Of a DNA stretch of 64,000 bases, positions 7,408 to 60,000 are shown in pieces. The translations under genes and the position numbers were made by a program. This DNA is from Patescibacteria group bacterium (GTDB taxonomy: Bacteria; Patescibacteriota; Microgenomatia; UM-FILTER-40-11), in contig DATKVM010000002.1 in the NCBI GenBank assembly GCA_035530075.1, positions 103,348-167,347 of the forward strand, in the 5' to 3' direction. A model generated the notes under the pieces. The model had not been told where the DNA came from. It did no database searches and was given only the letters and a program-made list of their open reading frames with translations. Positions within the stretch are counted from its first letter, which is position 1. The number at the start of each line of letters is the position of its first letter.

Positions 7408-7415
7408 ATTCCTCC

Positions 7416-9428
7416 TTAAGGAGTTAGCTGGCTATAATATGAAACGTAGTCGGCAACGCTTCGGGTGTTGGCAATTTTGACAAGAGTCTCTTGTTGAACC
7501 GGGGTCAAAAGTTTGCCTAGATCAAATTCTGTCCCCGGTTGAACGATATCAATTTCGACACCATTCTGGCGGAGCATCTTGATCATTGAGCCAACCAATG
7601 ACTGTCTGGCAGTCACTCCATTTTCCGGATTAATCCAGCCTTCAATGCCATTTTGCTCCATCCACCTACCCACCGGCCCTTCTGCCTCTTTCCAGAACCA
7701 ACTTCCTCCGGGAATCCTAATTTTTTGAGCAAAGAGGTCGGCTCCTGCTTCTCTTGTCCCCTGGGTGGCGACAGAAGTAGCCGCTCTTATATCTGGCATC
7801 TCTATCTTAGGAACGCTGGTAACATGCTCGGGTCCAGTGGGAACTGGAGTAACTGGTATTCCAGTTGTGGCTCCGATCGGCGGTCTAACCGCATGAATTG
7901 CCGCTTCCACCGCCGGCGACAAGATTTGATAAGCCGCATGGACAATTGAGCCGACAGCCAAACCTGAAGCAAAGTCGCTAAGATAACCTGCTGCTCTGCC
8001 ATATTTCTTTCCCCGTTCAGTCATTTTGTCTATCAAAGCCTGGCGCCCAGTGTTATCTTGCGCCTGTTCAATTTGAGTAATTAATTTTTGCGATTCGCTG
8101 GTAAATGCGGCTTTAAGCCCCAAGTTAACCGAATTGATCAAAGCAACATTGGCAATGCCTTTAACTGCCGCCATTCCCGGGACGACGTCACTGACAAACA
8201 TCGACTCAACAAAACCGGCAGCAACACCCAACCCCCAAGCCGCCCAATCACCCTTATTTCTTCCTGGAGGAGGAAGGCTTTTCCACCAATCAGCGACTGC
8301 CTTGCCTAAAAGACGACGGAGCCTTCCTATTTTTTTTTGACTTTCCGCAGTCAGAGGAGCTCCCTCGGCCTGGCCAACTCCAGTTTCTGTGCTAATTCCG
8401 ACTCCTTGTAAAACAGCCGCCGTTCCCTCAACAACAGGACCGCTCGGCTGATCTTCCTGAAGTCCTCCTGCGACAACTGGTTGAGGTGATGCGCTGATTA
8501 CTGGCTCAATTGGCTCTGAGGCTGCCCCCCGATTTCCTACCACATCAACGGCTTCTTCTGCATTTAGAACATTGTTTCCGGTAACCTGGCCTCCACTGAC
8601 TGTTTTCTGGTTAGCAGAAAACCCGGCCACTCCTCCCTTAGCAATCTTTATTAATTGTCCAATTACTTCTGGATTGATTTCGGTAGGACTAGAGACATCT
8701 TGTACGGATTTCTCTTCAACAATGCTTTTATCTCTTCCGCCTAAAAGTTCCAATTTCCCATTAATTTCGTCTAGACGTCTTTGTTCTTTGGCCAATTCTT
8801 TTTGCAGGTGAGAACTTCCACCTTTTCCAATCTGCTCTTCAACCTCTTTAATTGTCTCTTCCGCTTCTCTCTGATTTGCCTCAAGAACTTCCCGAGATTC
8901 TCTTGGCAAATTGTCTTCTAAGGCATTTACCTCCGCATTGGTTCGAGATAGCCAAGCAACTTCATTTCTTAATTCTTCTCTTAACGGACCGGCGTTTTCG
9001 ATTCCTCCTTTTACCTCTATCTGTTCTTTTAATCCAGAAATCGCCTCTTCGATTTCGTTTCTCTGAGCAATTAGCTTTGGAGTTTCCTCAAAATATCTTT
9101 GAAAACGGTCAAGAGTTGCCAAGCTTCCTTCAGCGGATGAAATTCTAGCCTCAACCGCCTGGAGTCGCCTCTCTTCGTCTGCAAGCTCTTTGCCCAAATA
9201 AGAACTACCGCCTTTGGCTATTTGTTCTCTTATTCCTGAAATAGTTCCCAATGCTTCTTCCTTATCCTGGGTTAAACTTCTGGGACCGCCTTGAACGGCC
9301 TCTCCCGAAGAACCCACCAGTTCATTTATTCTCGACCGCTCCGCATCAAGAACTTCCCCCCAACCAACCACCCTTTGCTCCTGAACAACCGCAGGTTCAC
9401 GTTCTCCAATATCGCCTGTTTCTACCAT
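7416..9428 (-). CDS. Bitopic coiled-coil membrane protein, paralog family A. It has a repeated KGGSSHL coiled-coil unit and a C-terminal Trp-rich domain.
   Basis: 670 aa with two copies of the ..EQI.KGGSS(H/Y)L.KELA.E.RRL.. motif. A long block is shared with the 30642..32456 product (LDRFQRYFEETPKL, KGGIENAGPL). A WW(K/Q)SL motif precedes a hydrophobic segment, and the C-terminus carries a WFWK...W.NPENGV domain. Confidence 0.6.
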   Translation of the reverse strand: MVETGDIGEREPAVVQEQRVVGWGEVLDAERSRINELVGSSGEAVQGGPRSLTQDKEEALGTISGIREQIAKGGSSYLGKELADEERRLQAVEARISSAEGSLATLDRFQRYFEETPKLIAQRNEIEEAISGLKEQIEVKGGIENAGPLREELRNEVAWLSRTNAEVNALEDNLPRESREVLEANQREAEETIKEVEEQIGKGGSSHLQKELAKEQRRLDEINGKLELLGGRDKSIVEEKSVQDVSSPTEINPEVIGQLIKIAKGGVAGFSANQKTVSGGQVTGNNVLNAEEAVDVVGNRGAASEPIEPVISASPQPVVAGGLQEDQPSGPVVEGTAAVLQGVGISTETGVGQAEGAPLTAESQKKIGRLRRLLGKAVADWWKSLPPPGRNKGDWAAWGLGVAAGFVESMFVSDVVPGMAAVKGIANVALINSVNLGLKAAFTSESQKLITQIEQAQDNTGRQALIDKMTERGKKYGRAAGYLSDFASGLAVGSIVHAAYQILSPAVEAAIHAVRPPIGATTGIPVTPVPTGPEHVTSVPKIEMPDIRAATSVATQGTREAGADLFAQKIRIPGGSWFWKEAEGPVGRWMEQNGIEGWINPENGVTARQSLVGSMIKMLRQNGVEIDIVQPGTEFDLGKLLTPVQQETLVKIANTRSVADYVSYYSQLTP

Positions 9429-18458: not shown

Positions 18459-20612
18459 ATGATTAAAGAAGACTTACCTTTTTCCCTCATTGAAATCCGA
18501 TTACCAAAAAACAGTGAGAAAACGCCCGAAGCCGCTCTTCAGCTGTTCGCTTCTTTCTCTTCTCTTCCCCGAAAACCGCTCTTCTCCCTTAAACCGCCAG
18601 TCAGTATCGGTTTTGAGATTGTTTCCATCGATCAGCTAATTCATTTCTTAATTGCTTGCCCGAAAGAGTGGCAAAATTATGTGGAAAGCCAAGTTTCCGC
18701 TCAATACCCGGAAAGCGTAATGACTCTCTTGCCCAAAGACTACTTGGCCGGTTATCTTCCTAATTTTACCCCCTCGGTCGGGCAACTAGTCCTTTCTTCC
18801 CCTTTTTATCTTCCCTTACGAACTTTTCGCGACTTAAAAGAAACTGATTTGCTTTCTTCCGTTTTAGGAGCAATGTCTAAATCTTCCCCCAACGATTTTA
18901 TAGTTTACCAAATATTAATCGCTCAAGCGGGTAATTGGCAGGGCTTTGCCCAAGGACTTATTAATAAAGGCATTCCCTCCGGCGAAGAAGGCAAAGTTCT
19001 TCCCCACCCCCAAGCTAAAAATATCACTTTAAAAATTGGCAGTAGCGGTTTCTGGACGGCAATTCGTCTAATTACTAACTCTGCTACTTCCCTTCGGACT
19101 TTGGCTAATACCTTTTCCAGTTATCAGGGTGAGGTTAATTCCTTAAGATTTAAAGAGCCCTACTCTTTTCAGCGGAAAAAATTAATCGATGCCTGCCTTA
19201 AGCGTTCTTTCGAGCTGGCACCAGCTAATCAAGTCCTTAATTTAGAAGAATTAGCTTCTTTATGGCATCCACCCGGGAAAATACTTTCCGGAATAAAGAA
19301 TATTGCTTGGACTCAAGAAGCAATGTCCGAACCCCCCCTTAATTTACCGGTAGCGGCCGATATCGATGAAGCGGATAAAAAAGAAATTAATTTTTTCGCC
19401 CGGGCCGAATTTAAAAACCGAATTGCCACTTTCGGGATAAAGAAAAAAGACCGGCGACGGCACATCTATATTATCGGCAAAAGCGGCACCGGCAAATCAA
19501 CTTTAATCGCTAATATGGCCATTAATGATTTGCGCAATAAAGAGGGCTTGGCGGTGATTGACCCTCATGGAGATTTAACGGAAATCCTTTTGGACTACAT
19601 CCCCTCTTTCCGCATTAACGAAACTTGCTTTCTTGATCCCAGTGATACGGAATATCCTTTCCACTTAAATCCGTTGGAAATTAAGAATCCCGCTCACAAA
19701 GAATTAGTCGCTTCGAATATAGTCGCGATCTTTTACAAGCTCTATTACTATTCTTGGGGGCCACGGCTGGAATACATTCTGCGCAACACGATTCTTACTT
19801 TACTGGAAACTCCCCAACCAACTTTAGTTCAAGTAATCGACCTTTTGGCCAATAAAAACTTCCGACGGCAGACAGTAGAAAAATTGGAAAATCCGGTTTT
19901 GAAAAATTTTTGGCTGAATGAATTTGAAAAGATGGACGAGAGGACCAAAGCGGAAGCTATTTCGCCCATTCTCAATAAAGTCGGCCAATTTACTTCTTCC
20001 CCGACGATTCGCCAGATTATTGGCTCCTATCATTCAACCGTTGATTTGGAAAAGATTATGAACGAAGGCAAGGTGCTTCTGGTCAACCTCTCTCAAGGAA
20101 AAATCGGTGAAGATAACGCCGCCTTACTGGGAGCAATGATTATTACTCAGCTTCAATTGGCGGCAATGAATCGTATCCGCATGCCTGAAGAAGAAAGGCG
20201 CGACTTTTATCTTTATGTCGATGAATTTCAGAATTTTGCCACCAGCGCATTTACTAAAATCCTTTCTGAGGCGCGCAAATATCGGCTCGATCTTTGCCTA
20301 GCCAACCAGTACATCGGCCAGCTAGGCGAAGAGTTACAAAAAGCAATTTTCGGCAACGCAGGAACGCTCGTTTCTTTTGTTATTGGCGCTCAGGACGCTA
20401 AACTCTTGACCGGAGAAATGGGCCAGGTTTATAAAGAAGAAGACCTGGTTTCCTTAGGGATGTACCAAGTCGCCTTGAAGCTTTGCATTGACAATTTAAC
20501 TTCGACTCCATTTTTAGCCAGCACTTTACCACTTCCCCGTTGCCGTAATCAAAACCGAGAGAAAGCGCTCCGAGTTTCTAAAGAGAAGCACACCGTTAAA
20601 AAGAAGGGTTAA
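18459..20612 (+). CDS. VirD4/TraD/TrwB-like (type IV coupling protein family) P-loop ATPase with an uncharacterised ~330-aa N-terminal domain
   Basis: Walker A IIGKSGTGKST is followed by AVIDPHGDL, as in TrwB (GTTGSGKS...VIVDPNGD). Walker B is YLYVDEFQNF. A conserved LANQYIGQL Gln block and GNAGTLVSF match TrwB/TraD. No N-terminal TM helices are evident. Confidence 0.6.
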   Translation: MIKEDLPFSLIEIRLPKNSEKTPEAALQLFASFSSLPRKPLFSLKPPVSIGFEIVSIDQLIHFLIACPKEWQNYVESQVSAQYPESVMTLLPKDYLAGYLPNFTPSVGQLVLSSPFYLPLRTFRDLKETDLLSSVLGAMSKSSPNDFIVYQILIAQAGNWQGFAQGLINKGIPSGEEGKVLPHPQAKNITLKIGSSGFWTAIRLITNSATSLRTLANTFSSYQGEVNSLRFKEPYSFQRKKLIDACLKRSFELAPANQVLNLEELASLWHPPGKILSGIKNIAWTQEAMSEPPLNLPVAADIDEADKKEINFFARAEFKNRIATFGIKKKDRRRHIYIIGKSGTGKSTLIANMAINDLRNKEGLAVIDPHGDLTEILLDYIPSFRINETCFLDPSDTEYPFHLNPLEIKNPAHKELVASNIVAIFYKLYYYSWGPRLEYILRNTILTLLETPQPTLVQVIDLLANKNFRRQTVEKLENPVLKNFWLNEFEKMDERTKAEAISPILNKVGQFTSSPTIRQIIGSYHSTVDLEKIMNEGKVLLVNLSQGKIGEDNAALLGAMIITQLQLAAMNRIRMPEEERRDFYLYVDEFQNFATSAFTKILSEARKYRLDLCLANQYIGQLGEELQKAIFGNAGTLVSFVIGAQDAKLLTGEMGQVYKEEDLVSLGMYQVALKLCIDNLTSTPFLASTLPLPRCRNQNREKALRVSKEKHTVKKKG

Positions 20613-26091: not shown

Positions 26092-26808
26092 CTACCATTT
26101 CTGGTTAGAAACAGGTTTCTCTATAGAGGCAATAGCTTTTTTCTCAATAATTTTCGCAATTTTTTCTAGCGGTAATGAGCCGTCAATTTTTTCGAAACCT
26201 CTACCGATCATTTTTGAAATAAAAAGATATCCTTTCCTAACTCTGTGAAAATATTCTAAATCTTGATAATCGTGGACACAATCGCGTTTCTTCCGTTTAG
26301 ACTTTCTTTCTCGCCCGACTTCAGGGGCAACATCAAGATAAAAAACCACGTCGGGGCAAACTCCCGCCACGGCAATTTGGTTTATTCTCCAAATGTCTTT
26401 CCACCCGAGACCACGAGCAAATCCTTGATAGGCTAAACTAGAAAAGAATGAACGTTCAGAAACAACAATTGCTCCTCTTTCTAAAGCCGGACGGAGTACG
26501 ACGGCAATGGCCTGACAACGGGAAGCGGCCAAAAGAAAAGCTTCAGAGTAAGGAACCAACCCCTCTCCTGACCGTGAGTGACTAATAATCACATCTCTCA
26601 CCTGTTCGCTTTTTTCGGTTCCGCCTGGTTCGTGCGTGTAAACTATTTCTCTGTCCGGATACCTCTCTTTAAGGAATTCATGAAGTAACTTTGCCTGTAT
26701 GCTTTTACCACATCCACCGATTCCTTCAAATACGAAGTATTTACCAGGTAATCTGTGCCCTAATAATTTATACATTTTTTTAGGCATTTCATCTCTTGAA
26801 AAAATCAA
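26092..26808 (-). CDS. tmk: Thymidylate kinase
   Basis: P-loop FVFEGIGGCGKSIQAKLL, DRY-like region and lid. 238 aa. Confidence 0.8.
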   Translation of the reverse strand: MIFSRDEMPKKMYKLLGHRLPGKYFVFEGIGGCGKSIQAKLLHEFLKERYPDREIVYTHEPGGTEKSEQVRDVIISHSRSGEGLVPYSEAFLLAASRCQAIAVVLRPALERGAIVVSERSFFSSLAYQGFARGLGWKDIWRINQIAVAGVCPDVVFYLDVAPEVGRERKSKRKKRDCVHDYQDLEYFHRVRKGYLFISKMIGRGFEKIDGSLPLEKIAKIIEKKAIASIEKPVSNQKW

Positions 26809-28300
26809 CTTTACCCGGGCTGGTGACCGCTATGTATTTGCCCCAGTCAGGATACCTTTTATTAAAAAGCTGCCACATCAGGTAAGTAATCTCGCGGTAA
26901 GAAAAATGGCCTTGAGGTTTAGTCCGAAGCTCGGCAATATATTGGAGTTCCCAAGGAGACATTTTCATTAAAAATCTTCTTCTCGTCGCTTGAGGGAGGA
27001 TATACTCGCCCACGCCCGGATATTTTTTTTCAATCTTTCGGTAGGTTTTCCAAACTTCTTCCATCGCTTTCTCATACACCCTTGCCATCCCCACCTCTTT
27101 TACTTCCTTTGGCATATCGTACCCATACTCCCCTGTCACCGGCTTTAAAATGTGAATACAGTTGCGGTGGCGATGCAAATCGCGAAAGCCGCCGACATCC
27201 ATGCAAATATCAAAAATGAGGGTGGCCGTGTCTGCTTCTCGTAAAACCTGATCATGCTCACCCCGAAGCTCAAACGCCAAACCAATCGCTTTCTTAATTA
27301 ATTTTTTATTGGCTTTTTTAATTGCCCGCAGTAACTGGCCGTAAGAATACGGCGTGGCTTTGTAAAACATCGTGGTCACCAAATCAATCTGTGGGTCAAC
27401 TCCCTCAAACATTTCTACGCCACGCTTGCCATCCGGCTCCCTGAGTCCCCTTAATTTTCCCACCAACGCCGCCATTTCCCCATACACATTCCTGGGATAA
27501 TCTTTCTTCTCCGCATATTTAACCAAAGTCGGCAAGGCAATATTTTTCCCGGCAATCGCCACTTTCAGCTCCGCTTTTTCCTCGGCCGAAAGCCAGTTCA
27601 TCCGCTCAATCTTCGCCAGAGACACATTAAACGCCTCTTTTTGGCAGATGGCTTTTTGCAATTCTTTCCCGATTTCCCGGCATTCCAGCAAAGGCGAGGA
27701 TAAAAACTTGGTGATTGTCCGCTCCCAAGTCCGGCCGGAAGCAAGGACACCCATTGATTTTGGTCCGGCGCAAGGAAGAAGATAGCGGCTGACATCATTG
27801 GCTCTGGCTCTTACCGTCCGAAGGTAAGCTTCATCATCCATCTCTTTAGGTTTTTCCGAAGCATACTTTTGGGAATAAAGTTCGGCCACCGCTTGAGTCA
27901 GTTGTGAATAAAGCCCAACCATTTCCCTCACGGTTTTCTGAAAAAGCGCTCGGGTTCTTTTATCTTTTTTTATTTCCGGCGGAAGAATAAAAACCGCCTT
28001 AGAATAATCAACATAACGGGTCGAGCGCGATTGGGCGTCAATCAACTGGTCATCAAGAAGAATATGTCGGGCGACCATGGAAATATTCTCAAAAATGACC
28101 ATTACATGAGCCAAATCGGCAATACTTGAGTGACCGTAATTGAAGTACATGGAGTTATAAAACTTCCCCGCCCCCTCTTCGGTCAACTCTAAAACCCAAT
28201 CTTGGTAGGACTTGTAAGTGGGCGTCCGGGAAAACTTGGCGGCGGCATAGCCCCCCGGTTCCGGCATGACCCCAAGAACCGAAAAAATCTTTCTTCTCAT
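26789..28300 (-). CDS. thyX: Flavin-dependent thymidylate synthase ThyX, long fused/pseudo-dimeric form
   Basis: The first half aligns to the ThyX core (GHSSIADLAHVMVIFENISMVARH...SRSTRY vs [29 protein letters not shown]...SGRYS) but has a degenerate RHR. The second half carries RDLHRHRNCIHI. At 503 aa it is about twice canonical ThyX length. The genomic context (dcd, tmk, glyA, folD) supports the call. Confidence 0.55.
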   Translation of the reverse strand: MRRKIFSVLGVMPEPGGYAAAKFSRTPTYKSYQDWVLELTEEGAGKFYNSMYFNYGHSSIADLAHVMVIFENISMVARHILLDDQLIDAQSRSTRYVDYSKAVFILPPEIKKDKRTRALFQKTVREMVGLYSQLTQAVAELYSQKYASEKPKEMDDEAYLRTVRARANDVSRYLLPCAGPKSMGVLASGRTWERTITKFLSSPLLECREIGKELQKAICQKEAFNVSLAKIERMNWLSAEEKAELKVAIAGKNIALPTLVKYAEKKDYPRNVYGEMAALVGKLRGLREPDGKRGVEMFEGVDPQIDLVTTMFYKATPYSYGQLLRAIKKANKKLIKKAIGLAFELRGEHDQVLREADTATLIFDICMDVGGFRDLHRHRNCIHILKPVTGEYGYDMPKEVKEVGMARVYEKAMEEVWKTYRKIEKKYPGVGEYILPQATRRRFLMKMSPWELQYIAELRTKPQGHFSYREITYLMWQLFNKRYPDWGKYIAVTSPGKVDFFKR

Positions 28301-29009: not shown

Positions 29010-30254
29010 TTAGAGGATAAGAATTATCTTGTAAAGTGGCACTTTGAGGTTGTTTTTAACGATTTCCCTGTGGCTCCAGTACTCCTGGAAGCTGTGAGTT
29101 TGAGCCACTTTCACCACTTCCTCATCCAGGACAACTACAAATTTTTGGCCGGGACGCAAGTGCCGGAAATCAATCCCCTCTGCCTTCAGTCTTTCAACTA
29201 AAATTTTAGTAATGACATCGCTTAGTCTAACGCCATTTTCCTCATTAACCCAATTAGTGTAACCGCAAACAGTAAGCCAATTGGCCACTAGTTGCTCAGC
29301 CGATTTCCAAAACCAGCCCTTTTTGGGAATGACTACCTCAATTAATGTTTTCGGCTGGGTTTTTTCCTGGCTTAGTTTAGGGGTAACTACAACCACCGGC
29401 GGCGGGGTTTCAAACTCTCCCCCTTCTACCTCCGGTTTTATAACCTGTTCCGGAGCCGGAGTAGGATAAAGAGTTTGACTAATCGGGTTTTGGGTTAATT
29501 TCCTTTCTTCCTCCCTGGGAGAAGACGAAAGCAAAGCTTTCGTACCGGCAATAAGCGAACCCAAAACTAAAACGGCGCTGACACCATGGGCCAGTCGTTT
29601 ACGAAAGCTTTTCGCTTGGTTCCGCTTTTTCTCTTCCCCTGCTTCCCTCTGGACAACTGCCTGGGCTATTCCTTGGGCGATTACTAGCCCTTCAGGTGTT
29701 TGTCGCAACTGGTCCAGGCGGTGGATTTGCTTTGCTCGGGAACAAAGAGGTCCACCGTTAGCCGGCTGTCGATCAAAAACCCGACCGAAAATTCTCTTTA
29801 TCCAACCAGGTTTAGATGGGAGCCGGCTTTCTTCTTCGGCTTCTTCTTTTAGGGAAGTCGGCTTCTCAGAAGCTGCTGGAGACAAGGGTAATTGGGCGCT
29901 CTTAAGCTTGGCTATCTCTTCCTCCAGTTGAATAATCCTTTGGTCACGATCTTGGATTGCCTTACTCTCAGCTGAAATTTGGCCTTGTAGGGTTCTCGCC
30001 TCTTCCTCTCTCAGTGCCAATTCATTTTGTAGGGCTTGGTTTCGTGTCAAAAGAAATTCATTGGCCACTTTCAGCTCAATATCTATTACCGCTTCAATTG
30101 AATCCGAACCTACCTGCGCAAGCTTCTCCGCTAGCAACGAAAGATATTCCGGAGAAAGAGGAATGTCTCTTTCTCCGAGGAATAGGGGTTTCTCGGCTGA
30201 CATAAGAATAGAACCTTGCGTGACTGGGTTTAACATAACCCAAAAAAGAAGCAA
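29010..30254 (-). CDS. Bitopic coiled-coil membrane protein, paralog family B (shorter)
   Basis: N-terminal coiled coil, one TM segment (VSAVLVLGSLIAGTKALL), a Pro-rich linker and the family-defining GWFWKSAEQLVANWL...TNWVNEENGV...HLRPGQKFVV C-terminal domain. Confidence 0.5.
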   Translation of the reverse strand: MLLFWVMLNPVTQGSILMSAEKPLFLGERDIPLSPEYLSLLAEKLAQVGSDSIEAVIDIELKVANEFLLTRNQALQNELALREEEARTLQGQISAESKAIQDRDQRIIQLEEEIAKLKSAQLPLSPAASEKPTSLKEEAEEESRLPSKPGWIKRIFGRVFDRQPANGGPLCSRAKQIHRLDQLRQTPEGLVIAQGIAQAVVQREAGEEKKRNQAKSFRKRLAHGVSAVLVLGSLIAGTKALLSSSPREEERKLTQNPISQTLYPTPAPEQVIKPEVEGGEFETPPPVVVVTPKLSQEKTQPKTLIEVVIPKKGWFWKSAEQLVANWLTVCGYTNWVNEENGVRLSDVITKILVERLKAEGIDFRHLRPGQKFVVVLDEEVVKVAQTHSFQEYWSHREIVKNNLKVPLYKIILIL

Positions 30255-30310
30255 AAGTCAAGGAGAATTGTGATTTTACTTACCATGTGCTTGAGGTTTC
30301 CCGAAAGGGA

Positions 30311-30616
30311 CTAGCGAGGTGAAACTCTTTTAGCTAGAAATTCCTCAGTGGCCGTTGTTATCGTCTCCTCCAGCAAAGACTGAGGGCTCTTGCCGGTCCT
30401 TTGAGAATAGCGTTCCTTAATTTCAAAATCGGCTTCTTCCTGAACAGAGCATTTATTAATCACTTCCAGGTCCTCTTCAGTCAGAGCGGCGGCCATTTCC
30501 GTATAGAGCTTAGTGGTCGCGTTTTTCGTAATCTCTTCCAAAACCCTGTCAATCTCCTCCTCGCTTTGTCCTTCATTCTTTAGGGTTTGAATTAATGAAT
30601 CTAGTTTTAAATTCAT
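30311..30616 (-). CDS. Small acidic helical protein; paralog of the 7087..7407 product
   Basis: 101 aa (MNLKLDSLIQTLKNEGQSEEEIDRVLEEITK...LTEEDLEVINKCSVQEEA...). Same position downstream of a coiled-coil paralog. Confidence 0.55.
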   Translation of the reverse strand: MNLKLDSLIQTLKNEGQSEEEIDRVLEEITKNATTKLYTEMAAALTEEDLEVINKCSVQEEADFEIKERYSQRTGKSPQSLLEETITTATEEFLAKRVSPR

Positions 30617-30641
30617 TCTTGCTCTTTATTCAGCCGGCTAA

Positions 30642-32456
30642 CTATTTGTAAAATTCCTCGTAGATTGGCCGATAATCTTCCACCGAACCGCTCATATAAA
30701 TTCTCCAAAGCAAATCACGGTTTTCGTCATTAGTAACATAATCACGCATTCGAGTTATCCCCGGCGGAATCATTCCTAAATCACGATTTTCTTTTCTCGA
30801 TAACTTCCAGGCGGCATTAATAATCGCGTCCGCTTTAGAGGCACCCGTTTCTTCGTTGACCCAGACAATCTGCCCACTGTCCTCCATAACTTTCGTAAAT
30901 GGTTCTCTCGCCGAAGCCCAAAAATCGCTCCCTTCTTTAACCTTAATTTCCATGCCTAAAAGATCATCGAGGGTTTTAATTTTTACCTTTACCTCCGGTG
31001 AGGCAGCCACAGCCGCAGTTGTTTCCGCGGCCACCGGCTGAACGACACGGACTTCTCGGCTCATCCCTGAACCGCCTAAAACGGCGGCCAAGGCCAGGGC
31101 AGCTAAAAAGACCTGTGCTCGCGGCCGAAGCCTCAAGCGCTCTCCTAAACCTTGATTTCTTTCTTGTTCTTCGGCGTTATTCCCCCGACTCAGTCTCTCT
31201 CCCGGACTTAGTCTTTGCCACCAATTACTGACGGCCTGAGAGACTCTCTCCCTCCAAGTAGCTTTTACTGGAACTGCCTCCGCGTCTAAAAGCCGATCAA
31301 TTTCTCTTCTTCTGGCTTCTTTTTCCTCAGGAGTTTCTTCTTTCTCAATTCCTCGGCCGAAAACCTCTTTAATCGCCTGCTGTTTTAACTCCGCGGCCTT
31401 CGCTGCCTGAGCCGCCTTAATTTCCTGCTGTTTTTCATCTAAGGCTTTCAAGGCGGCCGTTCCTTCGGCCGTCAGAGGACCAACCCTGGCCACCGGTTCA
31501 ACTAGTGGTTGCGGTTGCTCTTCCCTGAGAGGTTGCTCTTCTGCCAGTCGGGCGCTTGGAGTCACTACTTCTCCTTTGGCAATTTTAATTAACTGCTCAA
31601 TCACTCGAGGATTTACTTCTGATTCTGCCTGAGCTTTTTCCCCCTCGGCCACTTTCGTTAACTTCTTCTCAATCTCTGCTAACCTTTTTTGTTCGGCGGC
31701 CAGCTCTTCCTCGAGATGAAGGCTTCCTCCTTTCCTAATCTGCTCCTCAAGTCCAGCGATGGTTGTTGCTGCTTCCGCTTTATTCGCTTCCAAAACCCCC
31801 CTCGTCTCTCGCGGCATTTCGGTCTCCGGCGGCCTTGCCTCGGTTCTCGGTCTCATTGCCGCTTTTAATTCTGGTGGCATCAAATCAGGAATCTGCTGGT
31901 TAACCTTCGCGAGCCAAGATATCTCCCTCCCTAGTTCTTTCCCTAGTGGGCCAGCATTAGCCATTCCCCCTTTTTCATCAATTTGCTCCCTTAACTCTTC
32001 TATTGCTCCCTCAATTTCTTTTTTAGTCGCTTCTAATTTGGGAGTCTCCTCAAAATATCTCTGCCATTGCCCAAGAGTTTGTAAACTCTCCTTTGTTGAA
32101 GAAACTCTTGCTTCTACCTCTCTCAGGCGGTTTTGTTCGGCATTCAGCTCTTCTGCTAAATGAGAACTGCCTCCTTTTCCCATCTGCTCCTTAATCCCTG
32201 CAATCGTTACTTCCGCTTCTACTTTATCTTCTCTCAAAGTTCTCCCCACTGGAGCAACTCCCTCAAAGCCCATTACTCCTTGCAAGCTTGCCCTTTCTGC
32301 TTCAATAATGGGCCGCCAAGGCTTTGTTCCCTTCTCGGCACTCTCAACCGAAAATTCCGCTGGATTCGTATCTCTTGATCCGCCTTCGTTTTCTCCCGGC
32401 ATTTTTCCCCTAGACAAACTCTCGCTTTGTAAATAGACCCCACAGAAGATTAACAT
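30642..32456 (-). CDS. Bitopic coiled-coil membrane protein, paralog family C, with a repeated KGGS(S/L)HL unit
   Basis: 604 aa with two EQ(M/I).KGGS.HL.EEL.AEQ.RL units and a block shared with 7416..9428 (LGQWQRYFEETPKLEATKKEIEGAIEELREQIDEKGGMANAGPL). WWQRLSP precedes the TM helix AQVFLAALALAAVLGG. The C-terminus has a FW...W.NEETG domain. The true start may be Met19 (MPGENEGG). Confidence 0.6.
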   Translation of the reverse strand: MLIFCGVYLQSESLSRGKMPGENEGGSRDTNPAEFSVESAEKGTKPWRPIIEAERASLQGVMGFEGVAPVGRTLREDKVEAEVTIAGIKEQMGKGGSSHLAEELNAEQNRLREVEARVSSTKESLQTLGQWQRYFEETPKLEATKKEIEGAIEELREQIDEKGGMANAGPLGKELGREISWLAKVNQQIPDLMPPELKAAMRPRTEARPPETEMPRETRGVLEANKAEAATTIAGLEEQIRKGGSLHLEEELAAEQKRLAEIEKKLTKVAEGEKAQAESEVNPRVIEQLIKIAKGEVVTPSARLAEEQPLREEQPQPLVEPVARVGPLTAEGTAALKALDEKQQEIKAAQAAKAAELKQQAIKEVFGRGIEKEETPEEKEARRREIDRLLDAEAVPVKATWRERVSQAVSNWWQRLSPGERLSRGNNAEEQERNQGLGERLRLRPRAQVFLAALALAAVLGGSGMSREVRVVQPVAAETTAAVAASPEVKVKIKTLDDLLGMEIKVKEGSDFWASAREPFTKVMEDSGQIVWVNEETGASKADAIINAAWKLSRKENRDLGMIPPGITRMRDYVTNDENRDLLWRIYMSGSVEDYRPIYEEFYK

Positions 32457-32509: not shown

Positions 32510-33439
32510 TTACAGCCCGTAATTAGCCAAAGAAGTGGCCCCAATGCGAATGCGGGAAAAGCGATACGGCAAACCTAAACATTGAGGAGCTTGATTAGTG
32601 GTCACCGCTGCCCCTTGAAAACTGCCTTCTTTTAGCGCTTGCTCAACACTGGCGTTGATGCCACCATATGGATAGGCAAAGAAATGGACGGACCGGCCCA
32701 GGTGCTCCCGCAAGATATTATTGGCCGAAAAGATTTGATCTTTAATTTGAAAATCGGTCAGCTTCGTCAAATAAGGATGATTAAGAGTGTGATTGCCAGG
32801 CAAAACTAGGCCGCTGTCAACCATTTCCTTAATTTGGGCCCAGACCAAATAGCGCTCCCCGCCCACAAATTGAGAAATGACAAACAAAGTAGCCTTAATC
32901 CCCTTTTCCCGCAAGAGCGGATAAACATAGTCGTAAAAATCCCGATAGCCATCATCAAAGGTTAAGACCACCGGTTTAGTCGGCAAAGAATCGTTCCTTA
33001 TTCCCTCCACCATTTCGTCCAAACCAATAACGTGGTAACCCTTTTGCCAAAGATAGTCCATTTGGGCCCGGAAAACTGCCGGCGGCACATTAAGATAACT
33101 GGCGCCGATAGTAGCAGCGTCTTCGGCTTCCATAACGTGGTGGTACATCAGAACCGGAACGTATCGGCAAGGACCATATCTTTGGTTTACTGCCTCAAAT
33201 TGTCTTTTTCTTATGGCCGCGAGTTCCTCGAGGGTTAAGGTGGGAGTTGGGGTTGGTGGCAATAAGGTTGGTGTAGCCACTAGCGGGGAAGGAAAATGGC
33301 CCGTTTGGGGTGGTTGAGTGTCTATCAGTAGATAACTTTCTTTAGTCTTATCAAGCCAAAATTGAAAAAAAAGGCCAAAAATAACCGCGGCGGTTAAAAC
33401 CGCTAAAACAAAAATGAGAAGGCTCTTTTTCTTCACCAA
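32510..33439 (-). CDS. Polysaccharide deacetylase (CE4/NodB-homology), membrane-anchored
   Basis: N-terminal TM helix, PT-rich linker and the NodB motifs VLMYHHV and VVLTFDDGYRD. Confidence 0.75.
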   Translation of the reverse strand: MVKKKSLLIFVLAVLTAAVIFGLFFQFWLDKTKESYLLIDTQPPQTGHFPSPLVATPTLLPPTPTPTLTLEELAAIRKRQFEAVNQRYGPCRYVPVLMYHHVMEAEDAATIGASYLNVPPAVFRAQMDYLWQKGYHVIGLDEMVEGIRNDSLPTKPVVLTFDDGYRDFYDYVYPLLREKGIKATLFVISQFVGGERYLVWAQIKEMVDSGLVLPGNHTLNHPYLTKLTDFQIKDQIFSANNILREHLGRSVHFFAYPYGGINASVEQALKEGSFQGAAVTTNQAPQCLGLPYRFSRIRIGATSLANYGL

Positions 33440-39326: not shown

Positions 39327-40379
39327 TTATTTTACCCCTCCCCTAACCCTCACTTTCTGGAGTAAGTTTTCGTCCGCCAACACTTTGGCGCAACCTTTCA
39401 CCGTCACCGTCAAGGGGTCCTCGACCACCATGCAGGGCATTTTCGTGGTTTCCGTCACCAGCAAATCCAACCCGGGCAATGAAGTTATCCCACCAGCCAG
39501 ATATATCCCTTTTTGAGCAATATCACCCAAAAGTTCGGGAGGAGTTTCTTCAATAATATCGGAAATTGCTCCTACCAGCTGATTAAGAATGGGAGCCAAG
39601 GCCTCCCGCACTTCGGCGACATTGACTCGCAGCGATCGGGGTAAACCAGTGGCCAGATCTCGACCCCGAACGACCATTAATCGCTCATCCCGACCTTTAA
39701 TTTCCCAAGCCGAACCTAAACCAATTTTTAAATTTTCAGCCGTCGGCAAGCCAATGAGAATTGAATATTTCAAGCGCAAAAAGTTAATAATCGCTTCATC
39801 CATCTCATCCCCGGCTACCCGGAGAGATTTGTTAATGACAATTCCCCCCAAGGAAATGACCGCCAATTCAGTCGTGCCACCCCCAATATTGACGATTAGC
39901 GCCCCGGCGGCCTCAAAAATCGGCAAATCGGCCCCGATAGCCGTCGCCATTGGCTCCTCAACCAAATAAGCCACCCGAGCCCCAGCGGCAAAGGCGGCAT
40001 CCTGAACCGCTTTCTTCTCCACATCAGTCACCCCTGCTGGGATACTGATCGCCACCTTTGGTTTAGGAATTTTGATATTCAAGCCATGGCTTTGATGAAG
40101 TTTTTTAAAGTAATAAGAAAGCATTCCTAGGGTCGCATCAAAATCGGAAATAACCCCGTCTTGTAAAGGAGGAATCGCCTCTAGCTGCCCTGGCGTTCGG
40201 CCAATCATTTTTTTAGCCTCGCTACCAACGGCAACTATCTCTTTGCTCTTTTTATGGCGAGCAACCACGGTTGGCTCTCGCACCGCTACCCCTTTGCCTA
40301 AAACCATAATCCGGGTATTGGTCGTTCCCATATCCACCCCTAAATCATAAGAAACCAGTCTGAAAAATCTATCCAGCAC
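39327..40379 (-). CDS. mreB: Rod shape-determining protein MreB
   Basis: FRLVSYDLGVDMGTTNTRIMVLGKG... carries the full actin-fold motifs (phosphate 1/2, adenosine). Confidence 0.85.
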   Translation of the reverse strand: MLDRFFRLVSYDLGVDMGTTNTRIMVLGKGVAVREPTVVARHKKSKEIVAVGSEAKKMIGRTPGQLEAIPPLQDGVISDFDATLGMLSYYFKKLHQSHGLNIKIPKPKVAISIPAGVTDVEKKAVQDAAFAAGARVAYLVEEPMATAIGADLPIFEAAGALIVNIGGGTTELAVISLGGIVINKSLRVAGDEMDEAIINFLRLKYSILIGLPTAENLKIGLGSAWEIKGRDERLMVVRGRDLATGLPRSLRVNVAEVREALAPILNQLVGAISDIIEETPPELLGDIAQKGIYLAGGITSLPGLDLLVTETTKMPCMVVEDPLTVTVKGCAKVLADENLLQKVRVRGGVK

Positions 40380-40417: not shown

Positions 40418-42511
40418 ATGAAGCTCGATGCCTTTTTCCAAAAAACAATCGCCTGGCTTTTTCCAATTCTTTTCTTTCTAGTACCCCTTTTCTTCACTCC
40501 TTATAATTCCGAACTTTTCGAATTCAATAAAATGCTTTTGGTTTACGCCTTCACCATTCTCATAGTCGGTGCCTGGTGCGCCCGGATGATTGGTCAAAAA
40601 AGGCTCATTTTCCAAAAAACCCCTCTGGACTGGCCCCTTTTAATTTTCTTAATTTCTCAATTTTTAAGTTTTTTACTTTCCATTGACCGGCATACCAGTC
40701 TCTGGGGATATTATTCCCGGTTTAACGGTGGCCTTCTATCCGTAATTGCTTATCTGCTTCTCTATTGGGCGTTTATCAGCAATTGCCAAACCAAGGATGT
40801 CCATAAAATTATTAAAGCTTCTCTAGCGGCTGGCTTAATTATTTCTTTTTATGGCATTCTGGAGCATTTCGGACACTCTTTCAGTTGTCTTTTATTCGAG
40901 GGAAAGTTTAATGTCGATTGTTGGGTTCAGGATGTTCAGGCTCGCGTTTTTGCCACCCTAGGCCAACCCAATTGGCTGGCCGCTTACCTAGCCGTCCTTA
41001 TTCCTATCGCCATCGTTTATCTTCTTTGGGCCAAAAACAAAAGGAACTTTGCTTACTATTTAATACTTAATGCTAGCTACTTTGCTTGTCTTCTCTTCAC
41101 CGGCTCCCGCTCCGGTTTTTTGGGTCTGGTTACTGCCCTCGGTGTTTTGGGAATATTTATTTTTCTCTTCTATCGCCGAAACTTCCGTCCTTTTCTTCGT
41201 CCCTGCTTAATACTTACTACTAACTACTTGCTACTAATCGTTATTTTCGGCTCACCTTTTTCTCAAATTAATCGCTATTTGCCCCGTTGGTCATTTTTGC
41301 CAGAAAAAGCGGTCCCCGCGGTCACGGTCGGAACTCAATTGGAAACTGGGGGGACAGAATCAGGAAAAATCCGCCAAATAGTTTGGCAAGGGGCCTGGGA
41401 AATCTTTCGCCACTACCCGATTTTTGGATCTGGAGTGGAAACTTTTGCCCATTCTTACTACAATTTTCGGCCAGTGGCTCATAATACTGTATCAGAATGG
41501 GATTTTCTGTATAATAAGGCTCATAACGAATACCTTAATTATCTCTCCACGACCGGGATTGTCGGCTTAGGAGCTTACCTTTTCTTCATTGGCTGGTTTA
41601 TTACCCAGACCGTATCCAGGTTTAAAAAGGAACTGACTTCTTCCGATAACCTTAATCCTTACTCCTTAATACTGGCTACTTTCTGCGGTTGGCTTTCCAT
41701 CCTTGTTTCTAATTTTTTTGGCTTTTCCGTCGTCATTATCTCCCTGTATTTTTATCTCATCCCCGCTTTCATTTTCGTCCTTTCTCGCCCGCCAACTGCC
41801 AGCGACCAACCATCTCTACCCTTCACTCTTAGCCGTAAAATTTTGTTTCTCGTCCTCCTGCTTACTACTTTCTACTTACTACTGACTACTATTAATCTCT
41901 GGCGGGCAGATTTCTTTTATTCACTGAGTCAGAAATATAGCAAACAAAATCAATATGTTTCATCTTATCAAAACATAACAAAAGCTATCGAAATTGCTCC
42001 GAGAGAACCGATTTTTCTTAACGAACTTTCCTCGGTCGCCGCCAATTTAGCGATTCTGGCGGCAGAAGAAAAGAAGGCCAGCATGGCTGCCGAATTAACG
42101 ACGGTGGCTATCCATTCAAGCAAAGCCGCTTTAGAAATAAGTCCTACCAATCTTAACTTTGGGAAAACTCAAGTGCGAGTTTTTTATTTGCTTTCCGCCC
42201 TCGATCCTAATTATCTTGAAGAAGCGATTAATAGTCTTCGGGCGGCGATTAGTTTTGCCCCCACCGACCCGAAATTGGTTTACAATTTAGGACTTTTGAC
42301 GGCTAAAGCCGGCCAGACTAAAGAAGCCCTCGCGATAATCGAGAAGGCCGTTGAACTCAAGCCTAACTATGAAGAAGCGCACCGGACTCTGGCACTTTTT
42401 TATGAAGAATTAGGCAATAATCAAGATGCAATTAAACAGCTAGAAGCTATTCTAAAACAAAAAGGGTCCGATCCGGAAATTGAAGCCGAAATCGAAAAAC
42501 TGAAGAAGTAG
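40418..42511 (+). CDS. O-antigen ligase (Wzy_C)-like polytopic membrane protein with a C-terminal TPR domain
   Basis: Multiple TM helices, FTGSRSGFLG and H.HNEYLNYLSTTGIVG signatures of the O-antigen ligase family, and C-terminal TPR repeats (KAVELKPNYEEAHRTLALFYEELGNNQDAI). Confidence 0.65.
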   Translation: MKLDAFFQKTIAWLFPILFFLVPLFFTPYNSELFEFNKMLLVYAFTILIVGAWCARMIGQKRLIFQKTPLDWPLLIFLISQFLSFLLSIDRHTSLWGYYSRFNGGLLSVIAYLLLYWAFISNCQTKDVHKIIKASLAAGLIISFYGILEHFGHSFSCLLFEGKFNVDCWVQDVQARVFATLGQPNWLAAYLAVLIPIAIVYLLWAKNKRNFAYYLILNASYFACLLFTGSRSGFLGLVTALGVLGIFIFLFYRRNFRPFLRPCLILTTNYLLLIVIFGSPFSQINRYLPRWSFLPEKAVPAVTVGTQLETGGTESGKIRQIVWQGAWEIFRHYPIFGSGVETFAHSYYNFRPVAHNTVSEWDFLYNKAHNEYLNYLSTTGIVGLGAYLFFIGWFITQTVSRFKKELTSSDNLNPYSLILATFCGWLSILVSNFFGFSVVIISLYFYLIPAFIFVLSRPPTASDQPSLPFTLSRKILFLVLLLTTFYLLLTTINLWRADFFYSLSQKYSKQNQYVSSYQNITKAIEIAPREPIFLNELSSVAANLAILAAEEKKASMAAELTTVAIHSSKAALEISPTNLNFGKTQVRVFYLLSALDPNYLEEAINSLRAAISFAPTDPKLVYNLGLLTAKAGQTKEALAIIEKAVELKPNYEEAHRTLALFYEELGNNQDAIKQLEAILKQKGSDPEIEAEIEKLKK

Positions 42512-59767: not shown

Positions 59768-60000
59768 GATATCTTTTGATAAATAAAGTCCATAGTATGT
59801 TCTATTCTCAAAATCTTTCTTAAAATCATTATAAGTGCTAAATACTCTAATTTGCAATTTCTTATTGTCCTAAATGTGTTTCAGGTAAGAAATCGCCAAA
59901 ATTGTAGATTCTGAAAAGATAAGTATACATTTTAACTTAGTTCGACAAGAGAAATTTTTCTTCTTGCATTAGTTTGGTTGACATCGTTACAATTCTATAG

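What the first reader, a model, noticed from the sequence alone, without database searches (positions are those of the whole stretch)
29010..32456. Second locus of the coiled-coil/Trp-domain family: two large paralogs in tandem plus the small acidic partner
Three consecutive minus-strand genes (29010..30254, 30311..30616, 30642..32456) repeat the architecture of the 7.1-9.4 kb locus. Finding the family at two loci, each next to envelope-biogenesis genes (a CE4 deacetylase here; GT-C/GT2 at the other locus), suggests a lineage-specific envelope system rather than a one-off hypothetical. The C-terminal domains are clearly homologous but divergent (WFWKEAEGPVGRWMEQNGIEGWINPENGV / WFWKSAEQLVANWLTVCGYTNWVNEENGV / FWASAREPFTKVMEDSGQIVWVNEETGA), consistent with binding different ligands.
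Basis: seen in the sequence. Interest (0 to 1): 0.6.

Follow-up and report, generated by a model that had tools for sequence, protein, structure and literature searches.

The report
Wall-binding membrane tethers with small partner
Three real, related genes in an uncultivated Patescibacteria genome belong to a rare, unnamed family of membrane proteins. Each has a coiled-coil part inside the cell and a small, probably sugar-binding (LysM-like) domain outside, and most are paired with a roughly 100-residue acidic helper protein; the function is still inferred.

Summary
Genes B2 (29010..30203), S2 (30311..30616) and B1 (30642..32402), all on the minus strand, are real paralogs of A1/S1 at 7087..9428. 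Two start codons need correcting.

B1+S2 duplicates the A1+S1 pair. B2 shares only the C-terminal domain and the membrane topology.

An exhaustive profile search finds that ~100-residue domain in only 35 credible cluster representatives out of 1.84 billion, always at the C-terminus. The only taxon labels are Patescibacteria and Ca. Daviesbacteria. No Pfam, NCBIfam, PHROG or PADLOC family matches.

AlphaFold gives a confident β-α-α-β-α-α fold (pLDDT 88) with no significant PDB match. Several weak signals agree on a LysM-like core carrying insertions.

Predicted topology is a cytoplasmic coiled coil, then a TM segment, a linker, and the domain outside the cell.

In every non-B2-type locus where downstream DNA was available (15 gene pairs, 14 distinct), a 101–121-residue acidic helical gene follows directly. 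Its type co-varies with the large protein's membrane-proximal module.

Other neighbours vary, so the link to envelope-biogenesis genes is weak. Paralog count varies: one relative has CE4–B2–dcd without B1–S2.

Best reading (about 0.4): wall-anchored cytoplasmic scaffolds that work like FimV/HubP or MapZ but are not members of those families. Moderately interesting.

The parts
30642..32402 (-). B1: large subfamily-1 member, 586 aa from the ATG at 32402 (the mechanical ORF runs to 32456). Layout: acidic coiled-coil N-terminal region, WWQRLSPGER motif, one TM, short linker, C-terminal domain.
   Evidence: ORF. RBS and promoter-like sequence before 32402. Database protein P0001. 40% identical to A1 over 404 aa, E 1e-61.
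31122..32402 (-). B1 predicted cytoplasmic region (aa 1-427). It is acidic (pI 5.2), 59% E/K/R/Q/A/L, and contains a twice-repeated 'EQI.KGGS.HL..EL..EQ.RL' motif shared with A1.
   Evidence: Composition. Alignment to A1, including a second off-register HSP. Only weak coiled-coil-type matches: Rad50, LmuB, BST2. This region is 10-36% identical to the positional ortholog P0002, while the rest of the protein is 76-92% identical, falling to 53% over the last 36 aa.
31062..31118 (-). B1 transmembrane segment (aa 429-447, AQVFLAALALAAVLGGSGM), preceded by RLRLRPR.
   Evidence: Kyte-Doolittle mean 1.77. The positive-inside rule places the N-terminus in the cytoplasm (inference).
30645..30965 (-). 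B1 C-terminal domain (aa 480-586), the family signature domain, predicted to be extracytoplasmic.
   Evidence: Profile hit 5.8e-28. Alignment.
30311..30616 (-). S2: 101-aa acidic (pI 4.55) five-helix protein with no signal peptide. It is the type-1 small partner of B1.
   Evidence: ORF. 47% identical to S1, E 2e-30. AF2 pLDDT 88.4 with five helices. Homologs lie directly downstream of subfamily-1 large genes in 9 gene pairs (8 distinct).
29010..30203 (-). B2: subfamily-3 member, 397 aa from the ATG at 30203 (the mechanical ORF begins at a TTG at 30254). Layout: short coiled-coil N-terminal region, one TM, Pro-rich linker, C-terminal domain. It has no small partner of its own.
   Evidence: ORF. 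Identical to P0006/HUW24177.1. Orthologs P0008 and P0009 share the CE4...dcd synteny.
29529..29585 (-). B2 transmembrane segment (aa 207-225, GVSAVLVLGSLIAGTKALL), preceded by KKRNQAKSFRKR.
   Evidence: Kyte-Doolittle mean 1.79.
29013..29348 (-). B2 C-terminal domain (aa 286-397). This is the sequence that was modelled: β-α-α-β-α-α with a LysM-like core.
   Evidence: AF2 pLDDT 87.9, pTM 0.79. Profile hit 3.3e-27. hhalign against a LysM mini-profile: score 28.7 vs 9.1±2.2 for shuffles.
7416..9428 (-). A1: 670-aa subfamily-1 paralog at the other locus. Layout: coiled-coil N-terminus, full membrane module (aa 381-507, WWKSLPPPGRNK motif plus three hydrophobic segments), Pro/Thr linker, C-terminal domain (7419..7739).
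   Evidence: ORF. Identical to P0003, NCBI VMW04_00860. Hydrophobic windows. The motif is shared with P0013, P0014, P0020 and P0021.
7087..7407 (-). S1: 106-aa type-1 small partner of A1. A strong AAGGAGG ribosome-binding site overlaps the A1 stop codon.
   Evidence: ORF. Sequence. Profile hit 1e-52.
32510..33439 (-). CE4 polysaccharide deacetylase, the upstream neighbour. This is context only and is not shown to belong to the module.
   Evidence: Pfam Polysacc_deac_1, 9.7e-33. Adjacent to the locus in L001 and L008.

Best explanation
B1, B2 and A1 are most likely membrane-spanning tethers. The mechanism is an inference from architecture.

1. A large, mostly acidic coiled-coil region sits in the cytoplasm.
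2. One TM helix (B1, B2) or a three-segment membrane module (A1) crosses the membrane.
3. A Pro/Thr/Ala-rich spacer projects a ~100-residue C-terminal domain into the cell wall.
4. That domain is probably a LysM-derived glycan-binding module. A LysM-type β-α-α-β core carries two insertions, and the first of them (between α1 and α2) holds the family signature W-x-N-x-E-N-G-V. Two extra helices follow the core.
5. Binding wall polysaccharide or peptidoglycan would fix the protein in place, so that its cytoplasmic coiled coil serves as a stationary scaffold.
6. In subfamilies 1 and 2, a co-transcribed ~100-residue acidic five-helix protein (S1, S2) is the cytoplasmic partner. It probably docks on the membrane-proximal or N-terminal part of the large protein.

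What is shown:
- paralogy of the genes;
- rarity and lineage restriction of the family;
- the large-small gene pairing;
- the predicted topology;
- the confident predicted fold;
- the weak but convergent LysM signal.

What is inferred:
- glycan binding;
- the scaffold role;
- physical contact between the small and large proteins.
For: Topology:
- Single strong hydrophobic segments are preceded by Arg/Lys clusters.
- There are no signal peptides.
- The linkers are 37-48% P/T/S/A.

Coiled coil:
- The N-terminal regions are 49-59% E/K/R/Q/A/L.
- They give only weak matches to SMC, Rad50 and LmuB arms.

Domain:
- It is always C-terminal in the 35 credible representatives.
- The AF2 model has pLDDT 87.9 and the order β-α-α-β-α-α.

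LysM-like core, four independent weak signals:
- Profile-profile alignment covers all 43 LysM columns in register, P 1.2e-5, score 28.7. Forty column shuffles gave 9.1±2.2 (maximum 15.2) and the reversed alignment gave 9.4.
- One member hits Pfam LysM on β1/α1 (18.3 bits, gathering score 20.9).
- A PDB profile search lists a LysM chain, 5k2l, aligned on positions 5-30 at a non-significant E of 1.1.

Partner:
- A small gene follows directly in 15 of 15 non-B2-type gene pairs with downstream DNA (14 distinct): window x2, L001, L003, L004, L005, L007, L009-L016.
- The A1 stop codon overlaps the S1 ribosome-binding site.
- The type of small protein tracks the type of membrane module.
Against: - No member reaches Pfam's LysM threshold.
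- No ligand, localisation or interaction data exist.
- The neighbourhood is not consistently related to wall synthesis.
- B2 works without a partner in L008, so the pairing is not obligatory for the domain.
- B2 as a whole (48% identity to its ortholog) and the B1 N-terminus (10-36%) evolve much faster than their neighbours (75-88%). That pattern is as typical of conflict or host-interaction proteins as of housekeeping scaffolds.
Confidence: 0.4

Rival explanations
1. The proteins are accessory components of a type IV secretion, conjugation-like or pilus envelope machine. The LysM-like domain would anchor the apparatus in the wall and the coiled coil would contact cytoplasmic ATPases. This would work like the wall-anchoring factors of Gram-positive T4SS or ExeA/GspA.
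For: - In L007 and L010 the pair lies four genes from a divergently transcribed cluster of a 1147/1189-aa gene, a VirB4-like ATPase (AAA_10/P-loop_TraG), a TraC-like gene and PrgI.
- L011 has a weak T4SS_pilin hit nearby.
- The window and L001 carry a TrwB-type coupling-protein homolog about 10 kb away.
- dprA lies about 3 kb from the window locus.
Against: - The T4SS genes are never adjacent. They are separated by nadD, nadE and PP2C and are on the opposite strand.
- They are absent from L003, L004, L005, L012, L015 and L016.
- L007 and L010 are related genomes, so they count as roughly one observation.
- No T4SS Pfam family matches the proteins themselves.
Confidence: 0.12
2. This is a transmembrane signalling pair. 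The bitopic protein senses a wall or environmental glycan through its ectodomain and holds or releases the small cytoplasmic protein. Release might follow intramembrane cleavage by the site-2 protease RseP, in the manner of anti-sigma factors, or be controlled by Ser/Thr phosphorylation.
For: - A1-S1 is followed 80 bp downstream, on the same strand, by an M50/RseP protease.
- A PP2C phosphatase lies directly upstream in L007 and L010, and an FHA protein two genes upstream in L005.
- The topology matches that of bitopic anti-sigma factors.
Against: - RseP adjacency is seen only in the window and not in any other locus with downstream sequence.
- S1 and S2 are about 100 aa, strongly acidic, and match no sigma or DNA-binding family.
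- Gene order is large then small, and the 200-430-aa coiled coil is atypical for anti-sigma domains.
Confidence: 0.12
3. These are fast-evolving surface or conflict proteins of an episymbiont, for example host-cell attachment or inter-bacterial interaction factors. On this reading the ectodomain recognises a host glycan rather than the cell's own wall.
For: - B2 (48% identical) and the N-terminal 300 aa of B1 (10-36%) diverge far faster than flanking genes (75-88%) between the window and L001.
- Paralog number varies.
- Some loci sit among toxin-antitoxin, sortase, LAGLIDADG and giant unknown genes.
- LysM domains bind chitin and peptidoglycan of other organisms (established knowledge).
Against: - Most of the protein mass, and the fastest-evolving part of B1, is predicted to be cytoplasmic.
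- The B1 ectodomain is 84% conserved (53% over the last 36 aa).
- There is no match in the phage, plasmid, viral-contig or defence libraries.
- The composition of the locus is native to the genome.
Confidence: 0.1
4. The family is a low-complexity or coiled-coil artefact, or the ORFs are mis-called and not functional genes.
For: The N-terminal regions are compositionally biased and attract spurious coiled-coil hits. One top 'hit' of the domain profile was a spurious eukaryotic FN3-repeat protein.
Against: - The C-terminal domain and the small protein are not low-complexity.
- They are conserved across at least 14 independent loci and fold confidently.
- Orthologs are syntenic in a second genome.
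Confidence: 0.02

Closest known systems
FimV / HubP / TspA polar landmark (hub) proteins
   Same: All have a LysM-like wall-binding domain outside the membrane, one transmembrane segment and a large acidic cytoplasmic region that recruits partner proteins. The family's features are as summarised in PMC12918733. B1 and A1 share this logic.
   Different: - The order is inverted. FimV/HubP carry the LysM at the N-terminus behind a signal sequence; here it is at the C-terminus behind an N-in TM.
- There is no C-terminal TPR 'FimV domain' (no TPR hit).
- There is no sequence match.
- The LysM-like core here carries two insertions and two extra helices.
- The dedicated ~100-aa partner gene is not a FimV/HubP feature.
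MapZ (LocZ) of Streptococcus
   Same: The topology is identical: an N-terminal cytoplasmic domain, a single TM helix and a C-terminal extracellular domain that binds peptidoglycan and positions a cytoplasmic machine (PMC7055233 and PMC4931243). Ser/Thr-signalling genes (PP2C, FHA) sit beside some family members. That echoes MapZ phosphorylation by StkP, which I cite from my own knowledge.
   Different: There is no sequence or fold match to any solved structure or Pfam family, and so none to MapZ. The MapZ ectodomain is bi-modular and is not LysM. FtsZ binding is untested.
Canonical LysM domain (Pfam PF01476) and OapA/LysM-like N-domains of M23 peptidases (Csd3, NMB0315, VC0503)
   Same: - The secondary-structure order is β-α-α-β.
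- Profile-profile alignment covers the whole LysM in register.
- The 'V.I..G..FW' start resembles 'YtVkkGDTLw'.
   Different: - No member passes the Pfam threshold.
- The core is about 70 aa rather than 44, because of insertions of 17 and 8 residues.
- The signature W-x-N-x-E-N-G-V loop and two C-terminal helices have no LysM counterpart.
- There is no attached hydrolase.

Membership tests
LysM (Pfam PF01476) | Sequence scores at or above the Pfam gathering threshold (20.9 bits) | tested here: not met
   None of the 35 members passes. The only hit is P0034: 18.3 bits over 11 residues.
LysM (Pfam PF01476) | Compact βααβ fold of about 44 residues | tested here: inconclusive
   - The AF2 model has β-α-α-β order, but with longer helices and two further helices.
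- Foldseek finds nothing significant.
LysM (Pfam PF01476) | Binds GlcNAc-containing glycans (peptidoglycan, chitin) | not testable with these tools
   Needs binding assays with the recombinant domain.
FimV/HubP hub proteins | N-terminal periplasmic LysM-like domain followed by a TM segment | tested here: not met
   The LysM-like domain is C-terminal and lies after the TM segment.
FimV/HubP hub proteins | Extensive acidic cytoplasmic region | tested here: met
   B1 cytoplasmic region: 427 aa, pI 5.2. A1: 392 aa, pI 4.8. B2: 203 aa, pI 6.7, so weaker.
FimV/HubP hub proteins | C-terminal TPR 'FimV' domain | tested here: not met
   No TPR or FimV Pfam hit in any member.
MapZ/LocZ | N-in cytoplasmic domain, single TM, C-terminal extracellular wall-binding domain | tested here: inconclusive
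   The topology is predicted from hydrophobicity and the positive-inside rule. Wall binding is not testable here.
MapZ/LocZ | Homology to the MapZ cytoplasmic or extracellular domains | tested here: not met
Anti-sigma factor / sigma pair | The small partner is a sigma factor (σ2 plus σ4 domains), and the large protein has an N-terminal anti-sigma domain | tested here: not met
Anti-phage defence systems (PADLOC) | Match to a defence-protein model | tested here: not met
   Only weak matches to the coiled-coil arms of LmuB, DndD and PbeC (E >= 2e-4), with no ATPase head.

The most novel reading that the evidence does not exclude
The proteins form a Patescibacteria-specific, previously undescribed two-gene envelope module. 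It combines a new LysM-derived wall-binding domain family (signature W-x-N-x-E-N-G-V) on a bitopic coiled-coil protein with a dedicated small acidic cytoplasmic adaptor. The module would act as a positional landmark or hub in cells that lack most known division and polarity organisers. Its cytoplasmic 'business end' would be exchanged between paralogs: the B1 N-terminus is closer to its in-genome paralog A1 than to its own ortholog.
Probability: 0.25. Interest if true: 0.6.

Novelty: new variant of a known kind. Interest (0 to 1): 0.38.

Why it matters
Patescibacteria (CPR) make up a large share of bacterial diversity. They have tiny genomes and lack many canonical cell-division, polarity and envelope-organising proteins. 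How they position machines in the envelope is unknown.

A conserved module of a wall-anchored coiled-coil protein and a small adaptor would be a concrete candidate for that role, and its ectodomain could be tested by expression and binding assays.

The work also defines:
- an unannotated domain family with a confident predicted fold and no significant match in the PDB;
- two unannotated small-protein families (the two partner types).

However, the family is very rare: 35 representative clusters, mostly singletons. It appears confined to a narrow lineage, and every functional statement here is an inference. Its general importance is therefore limited unless experiments confirm a hub role.

Tried and rejected
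1. **Known families.** Scans of all five proteins against Pfam, NCBIfam, PHROGs and PADLOC gave only sub-threshold coiled-coil noise.
2. **DUF5663 for the small partner.** I recalled this as a lead from memory. No small partner of either type hits it, even at E <= 10. Rejected.
3. **Word-indexed homology search.** The full-length B1 and S2 queries each returned only self, the in-genome paralog or one relative. The same search with the 34-sequence domain alignment returned nothing. This is a sensitivity limit of the word index, because the exhaustive HMMER search does find the family.
4. **Locus searches.** A tighter alignment gave one locus in the GTDB species representatives, one in the metagenomes and none in viral contigs. 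The search pattern was narrow, so these counts understate the distribution.
5. **Fold libraries.** afdb50 was not available. Foldseek against the PDB found nothing significant.
7. **Single LysM consensus.** hhalign of the domain against one consensus sequence showed no signal. An 8-sequence mini-profile was needed.
8. **Flanking large genes.** Giant or large neighbours in L003, L005, L007, L011, L015 and L016, and the window's 1022-aa and 764-aa proteins, showed no mutual BLAST similarity. An exception is a shared N-terminal motif between the L007 and L011 giants, seen by eye.
9. **Phage or plasmid origin.** No tblastn match. The base composition of the locus is native.
10. **Signals around the locus.** Terminator-like sites are not enriched (7 found, 7.1±2.7 expected) and promoter-like sites (6 found, 3.7±1.9 expected) are not clearly so.

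Full report
**1. Observation**

The three minus-strand ORFs are present as described: 29010..30254, 30311..30616 and 30642..32456. So is the earlier pair at 7087..7407 and 7416..9428. I call them B2, S2, B1, S1 and A1.

Pairwise BLASTP shows real paralogy:
- B1 vs A1: 40% identity over 404 aa (E 1e-61), plus a separate C-terminal HSP (E 5e-11).
- B2 vs A1, C-terminal ~200 aa: E 1e-16.
- B2 vs B1, C-terminal 65 aa: E 1e-5.
- S2 vs S1: 47% identity, E 2e-30.

Two starts need correcting:
- B2 begins at the ATG at 30203 (397 aa). This form is the database protein P0006/HUW24177.1, and the ortholog P0008 starts at the equivalent Met.
- B1 probably begins at the ATG at 32402 (586 aa). An AGGGGA ribosome-binding site lies 5 nt upstream, and the near-identical (99%) database protein P0001 starts at the equivalent Met.

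Only B1+S2 repeats the A1+S1 architecture. B2 shares the C-terminal domain and the overall topology, but not the N-terminal domain.

**2. Organism and context**

A1, S2 and B2 are identical to NCBI proteins VMW04_00860, VMW04_00960 and VMW04_00955 of a 'Patescibacteria group bacterium' MAG. GC content is 45% and the locus composition matches the rest of the window.

The gene order around the locus, all on the minus strand, is:

mreB – mreC – PBP2 – dprA – topA – CE4 deacetylase – B1 – S2 – B2 – dcd – thyX.

A 290-kb contig from a related genome (L001) has the same order. Its flanking proteins are 75-88% identical (mreC 67%, SHMT 51%).

At the other locus, A1-S1 is flanked upstream by a 1022-aa polytopic membrane protein and a GT2. 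Downstream lies an M50/RseP protease.

**3. No known family**

Pfam, NCBIfam, PHROGs and PADLOC give nothing above threshold for any of the five proteins. There are only weak matches to coiled-coil arms: Rad50, SbcC, LmuB, BST2. PDB sequence searches with profiles of the domain and of the small protein are also empty.

**4. The family outside this genome**

The word-indexed search found only self, the in-genome paralog and one relative.

An exhaustive HMMER search of 1.84 billion cluster representatives, using a profile of the three C-terminal domains, found 36 proteins at E <= 1e-3. One is a spurious eukaryotic FN3-repeat protein. In the other 35:
- the domain is always at the extreme C-terminus of proteins of 130-909 aa;
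- the exception is P0025, a 1669-aa protein with three copies.

The alignment shows these consensus elements:
- V-x-I-x-x-G-x-x-F-W
- W-x-N-x-E-N-G-V-T-x-x-D-V
- A-R-A-N-G-x-x-L-x-x-V-x-x-G-x-x-F-x-L
- L-T-x-x-Q
- T-x-S-x-x-x-Y

One Trp is invariant.

Most clusters are singletons from metagenome assemblies. The only further taxon label is Candidatus Daviesbacteria, for L003. There is no match in phage or plasmid records or in viral contigs.

So this is a genuine, very rare, lineage-restricted family.

**5. Architecture**

| Protein | Membrane segment(s) | Preceding basic cluster | Linker before the C-terminal domain |
|---|---|---|---|
| B1 | one strong hydrophobic segment, aa 429-447 | RLRLRPR | 32 residues |
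| B2 | one strong hydrophobic segment, aa 207-225 | KKRNQAKSFRKR | 62 residues |
| A1 | three moderate segments within aa 398-507 | – | 52 residues |

By the positive-inside rule the N-terminus is cytoplasmic and the C-terminal domain is outside the cell; this is an inference. The linkers are 37-48% P/T/S/A.

The cytoplasmic regions are 203-427 aa, 49-59% E/K/R/Q/A/L, and acidic in A1 and B1 (pI 4.8-5.2). In A1 and B1 they contain a twice-repeated 'EQI.KGGS.HL..EL..EQ.RL' motif.

**6. The C-terminal domain**

AlphaFold2 on the 34-sequence alignment gives pLDDT 87.9 and pTM 0.79. The secondary-structure order is β(2-7) α(14-29) α(43-57) β(70-75) α(77-83) α(88-101).

Structure searches find no significant match:
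- Foldseek against the PDB finds nothing at E < 0.5.

The weak hits are nevertheless enriched for LysM-type modules:
- Csd3 (rank 1), 2gu1 and 3slu. These are M23 peptidases (Csd3 is listed only as a secreted protein), which I recall (untested here) as carrying LysM-like N-domains.
- 9gtp_P, described in the output as a LysM domain-containing protein.
- CEBiP, listed as a chitin elicitor-binding protein.
- The LysM domain 5k2l and the LysM effector Ecp6.

Independent sequence-level signals point the same way:
- One member gives a sub-threshold Pfam LysM hit on β1/α1.
- The PDB profile search lists the LysM chain 5k2l on positions 5-30, at a non-significant E of 1.1.
- A profile-profile alignment against an eight-sequence LysM mini-profile covers all 43 LysM columns in the expected register, with insertions of 17 and 8 residues. 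P is 1.2e-5 and the score 28.7. Forty column shuffles gave 9.1±2.2 (maximum 15.2) and the reversed alignment gave 9.4.

I conclude the domain is probably a LysM-derived core with insertions, the first of which carries the family-specific W-x-N-x-E-N-G loop, plus two added helices. It is not a Pfam-LysM member.

**7. The small partner**

In every locus where DNA downstream of a non-B2-type member was available, a gene of 101-121 codons follows. The gap is 1-51 bp.

| Loci |
|---|
| window (two pairs) |
| L001 |
| L003 |
| L004 |
| L005 |
| L007 |
| L009 |
| L010, L011, L012/L013, L014 |
| L015, L016 |

There are two homology types:
- **Type 1** is S1/S2-like, with the conserved motif 'LTEEDL..I.KC'. 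Profile hits range from 1e-21 to 1e-54.
- **Type 2** is found in L003, L014, L015 and L016. These are mutually related at E 7e-6 to 9e-53.
- The L004 small protein is only marginally similar to either type.

The type of small protein tracks the large protein's membrane-proximal module:
- Type 1 goes with the 'WW..(S/D)P..R(NK)' motif, or visible variants of it in P0018 and P0022.
- Type 2 goes with glycine-rich membrane modules that lack that motif.

This co-variation argues that the small protein contacts the N-terminal or membrane-proximal part of the large protein, not the ectodomain. That is an inference.

Other features of the small partner:
- The A1 stop codon overlaps a strong S1 ribosome-binding site.

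B2-type members (window, L001, L008) have no partner of their own and are followed by dcd.

**8. Variability**

L008 carries the tail of CE4, then the B2-type gene, then dcd, with no B1-S2 between them. Paralog number therefore differs between relatives.

Divergence between the window and L001:

| Protein | Identity between window and L001 |
|---|---|
| S2 | 87% |
| B2 | 48% |
| B1, N-terminal 300 aa | 10-36% |
| B1, remainder (aa 301-550) | 76-92% |
| B1, last 36 aa | 53% |

The B1 N-terminus is closer to its in-genome paralog A1 (40%) than to its positional ortholog. That suggests domain exchange or gene conversion between paralogs.

**9. Neighbourhood beyond the pair is not conserved**

- L007 and L010: VirB4-like, TraC-like, PrgI, nadD, nadE and PP2C upstream of the pair, and a giant protein downstream.
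- L005: an FHA protein and a 478-aa coiled-coil protein.
- L012: a JAB-like protein.
- L015: S1-domain protein, a TMEM260-like GT-C, an SDR and a GT2.
- L003 and L016: large unknown proteins.

The 'next to envelope-biogenesis genes' argument therefore rests on closely related syntenic genomes plus one independent case.

**10. Interpretation**

The best-supported mechanism is a wall-anchored, membrane-spanning scaffold. The LysM-like ectodomain binds a wall glycan. The cytoplasmic coiled coil, with its small acidic adaptor, organises or recruits cytoplasmic components.

It works like FimV/HubP (LysM – TM – acidic cytoplasmic hub; PMC12918733) or MapZ (cytoplasmic domain – TM – extracellular peptidoglycan-binding domain; PMC7055233 and PMC4931243). 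It fails the membership tests for both and for Pfam LysM.

Rival readings are less supported:
- a T4SS or pilus accessory;
- a transmembrane signalling pair linked to RseP or PP2C;
- a fast-evolving host-interaction protein.

An artefact is excluded.

**11. Verdict**

This is a real, unannotated, rare family specific to Patescibacteria. It has a new LysM-like domain variant and a conserved small partner. The function is inferred from architecture only. Interest is moderate.

Noticed in passing
window 31500..32402 (B1 N-terminus) vs L001 10001..10900 and window 8200..9428: B1 is a mosaic. Its N-terminal 300 aa are only 10-36% identical to the positional ortholog P0002, while the rest is 76-92% identical (53% over the last 36 aa) and flanking genes are 75-88%. 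The same N-terminus is 40% identical to the in-genome paralog A1. This suggests domain swapping or gene conversion between paralogs.
   Followed up: partly
L008 1..1967: A related contig has the CE4 tail, then the B2-type gene, then dcd, with no B1-S2 pair between them. So the B1-S2 module is present or absent between relatives at the same chromosomal site.
   Followed up: partly
L003 7377..7730, L014 2637..3002, L015 3869..4192, L016 10782..11138: A second, mutually homologous type of small partner (107-121 aa, 'LN..QL.ELE ... IP.F' pattern) follows family members that have glycine-rich membrane modules instead of the WW..SP..RNK motif. It has no Pfam match.
   Followed up: partly
L007 10916..15043, L011 10167..10934, L010 11785..15480: In one sub-lineage the large-small pair is followed by a giant protein of 1231-1375 aa with no Pfam hit. 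The L007 and L011 copies share an N-terminal motif, 'LT.ETA...LSSPDY.K.SR.EQAAVRR'. The window has no counterpart.
   Followed up: partly
window 26789..28300 (-): The ThyX homolog is 503 aa, about twice the usual length by my recollection. Pfam reports two Thy1 stretches, so it may be a tandem-duplicated or fused flavin-dependent thymidylate synthase.
   Followed up: no
window 58763..59857 (-) and 39327..40379 (-): There are two MreB/Mbl paralogs in one 64-kb window of a small-genome bacterium. The second sits in an mreB-mreC-PBP2 cluster about 4-8 kb from the B1/S2/B2 locus.
   Followed up: no
The adjacent 12775..13929 gene is a bona fide GT2.
   Followed up: partly
window 18459..20612 (+): A TrwB-type type IV coupling-protein / HerA-like ATPase homolog of 717 aa is conserved in L001. 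This is relevant to the T4SS rival reading.
   Followed up: no
protein P0025 (1669 aa, not in the window): One family member carries three tandem copies of the C-terminal domain after a very long acidic, Pro-rich region. It is the only multi-copy architecture seen.
   Followed up: no
L012 6002..6931: A JAB/MPN-like protein carrying an 'HTHPGYG...S..D' motif overlaps the start of the family member P0035 by 8 nt. The Pfam JAB hit is just below threshold.
   Followed up: no
window 40418..42511 (+): A Wzy_C (O-antigen ligase-like) domain fused to TPR repeats lies divergent from mreB and is conserved in L001.
   Followed up: no
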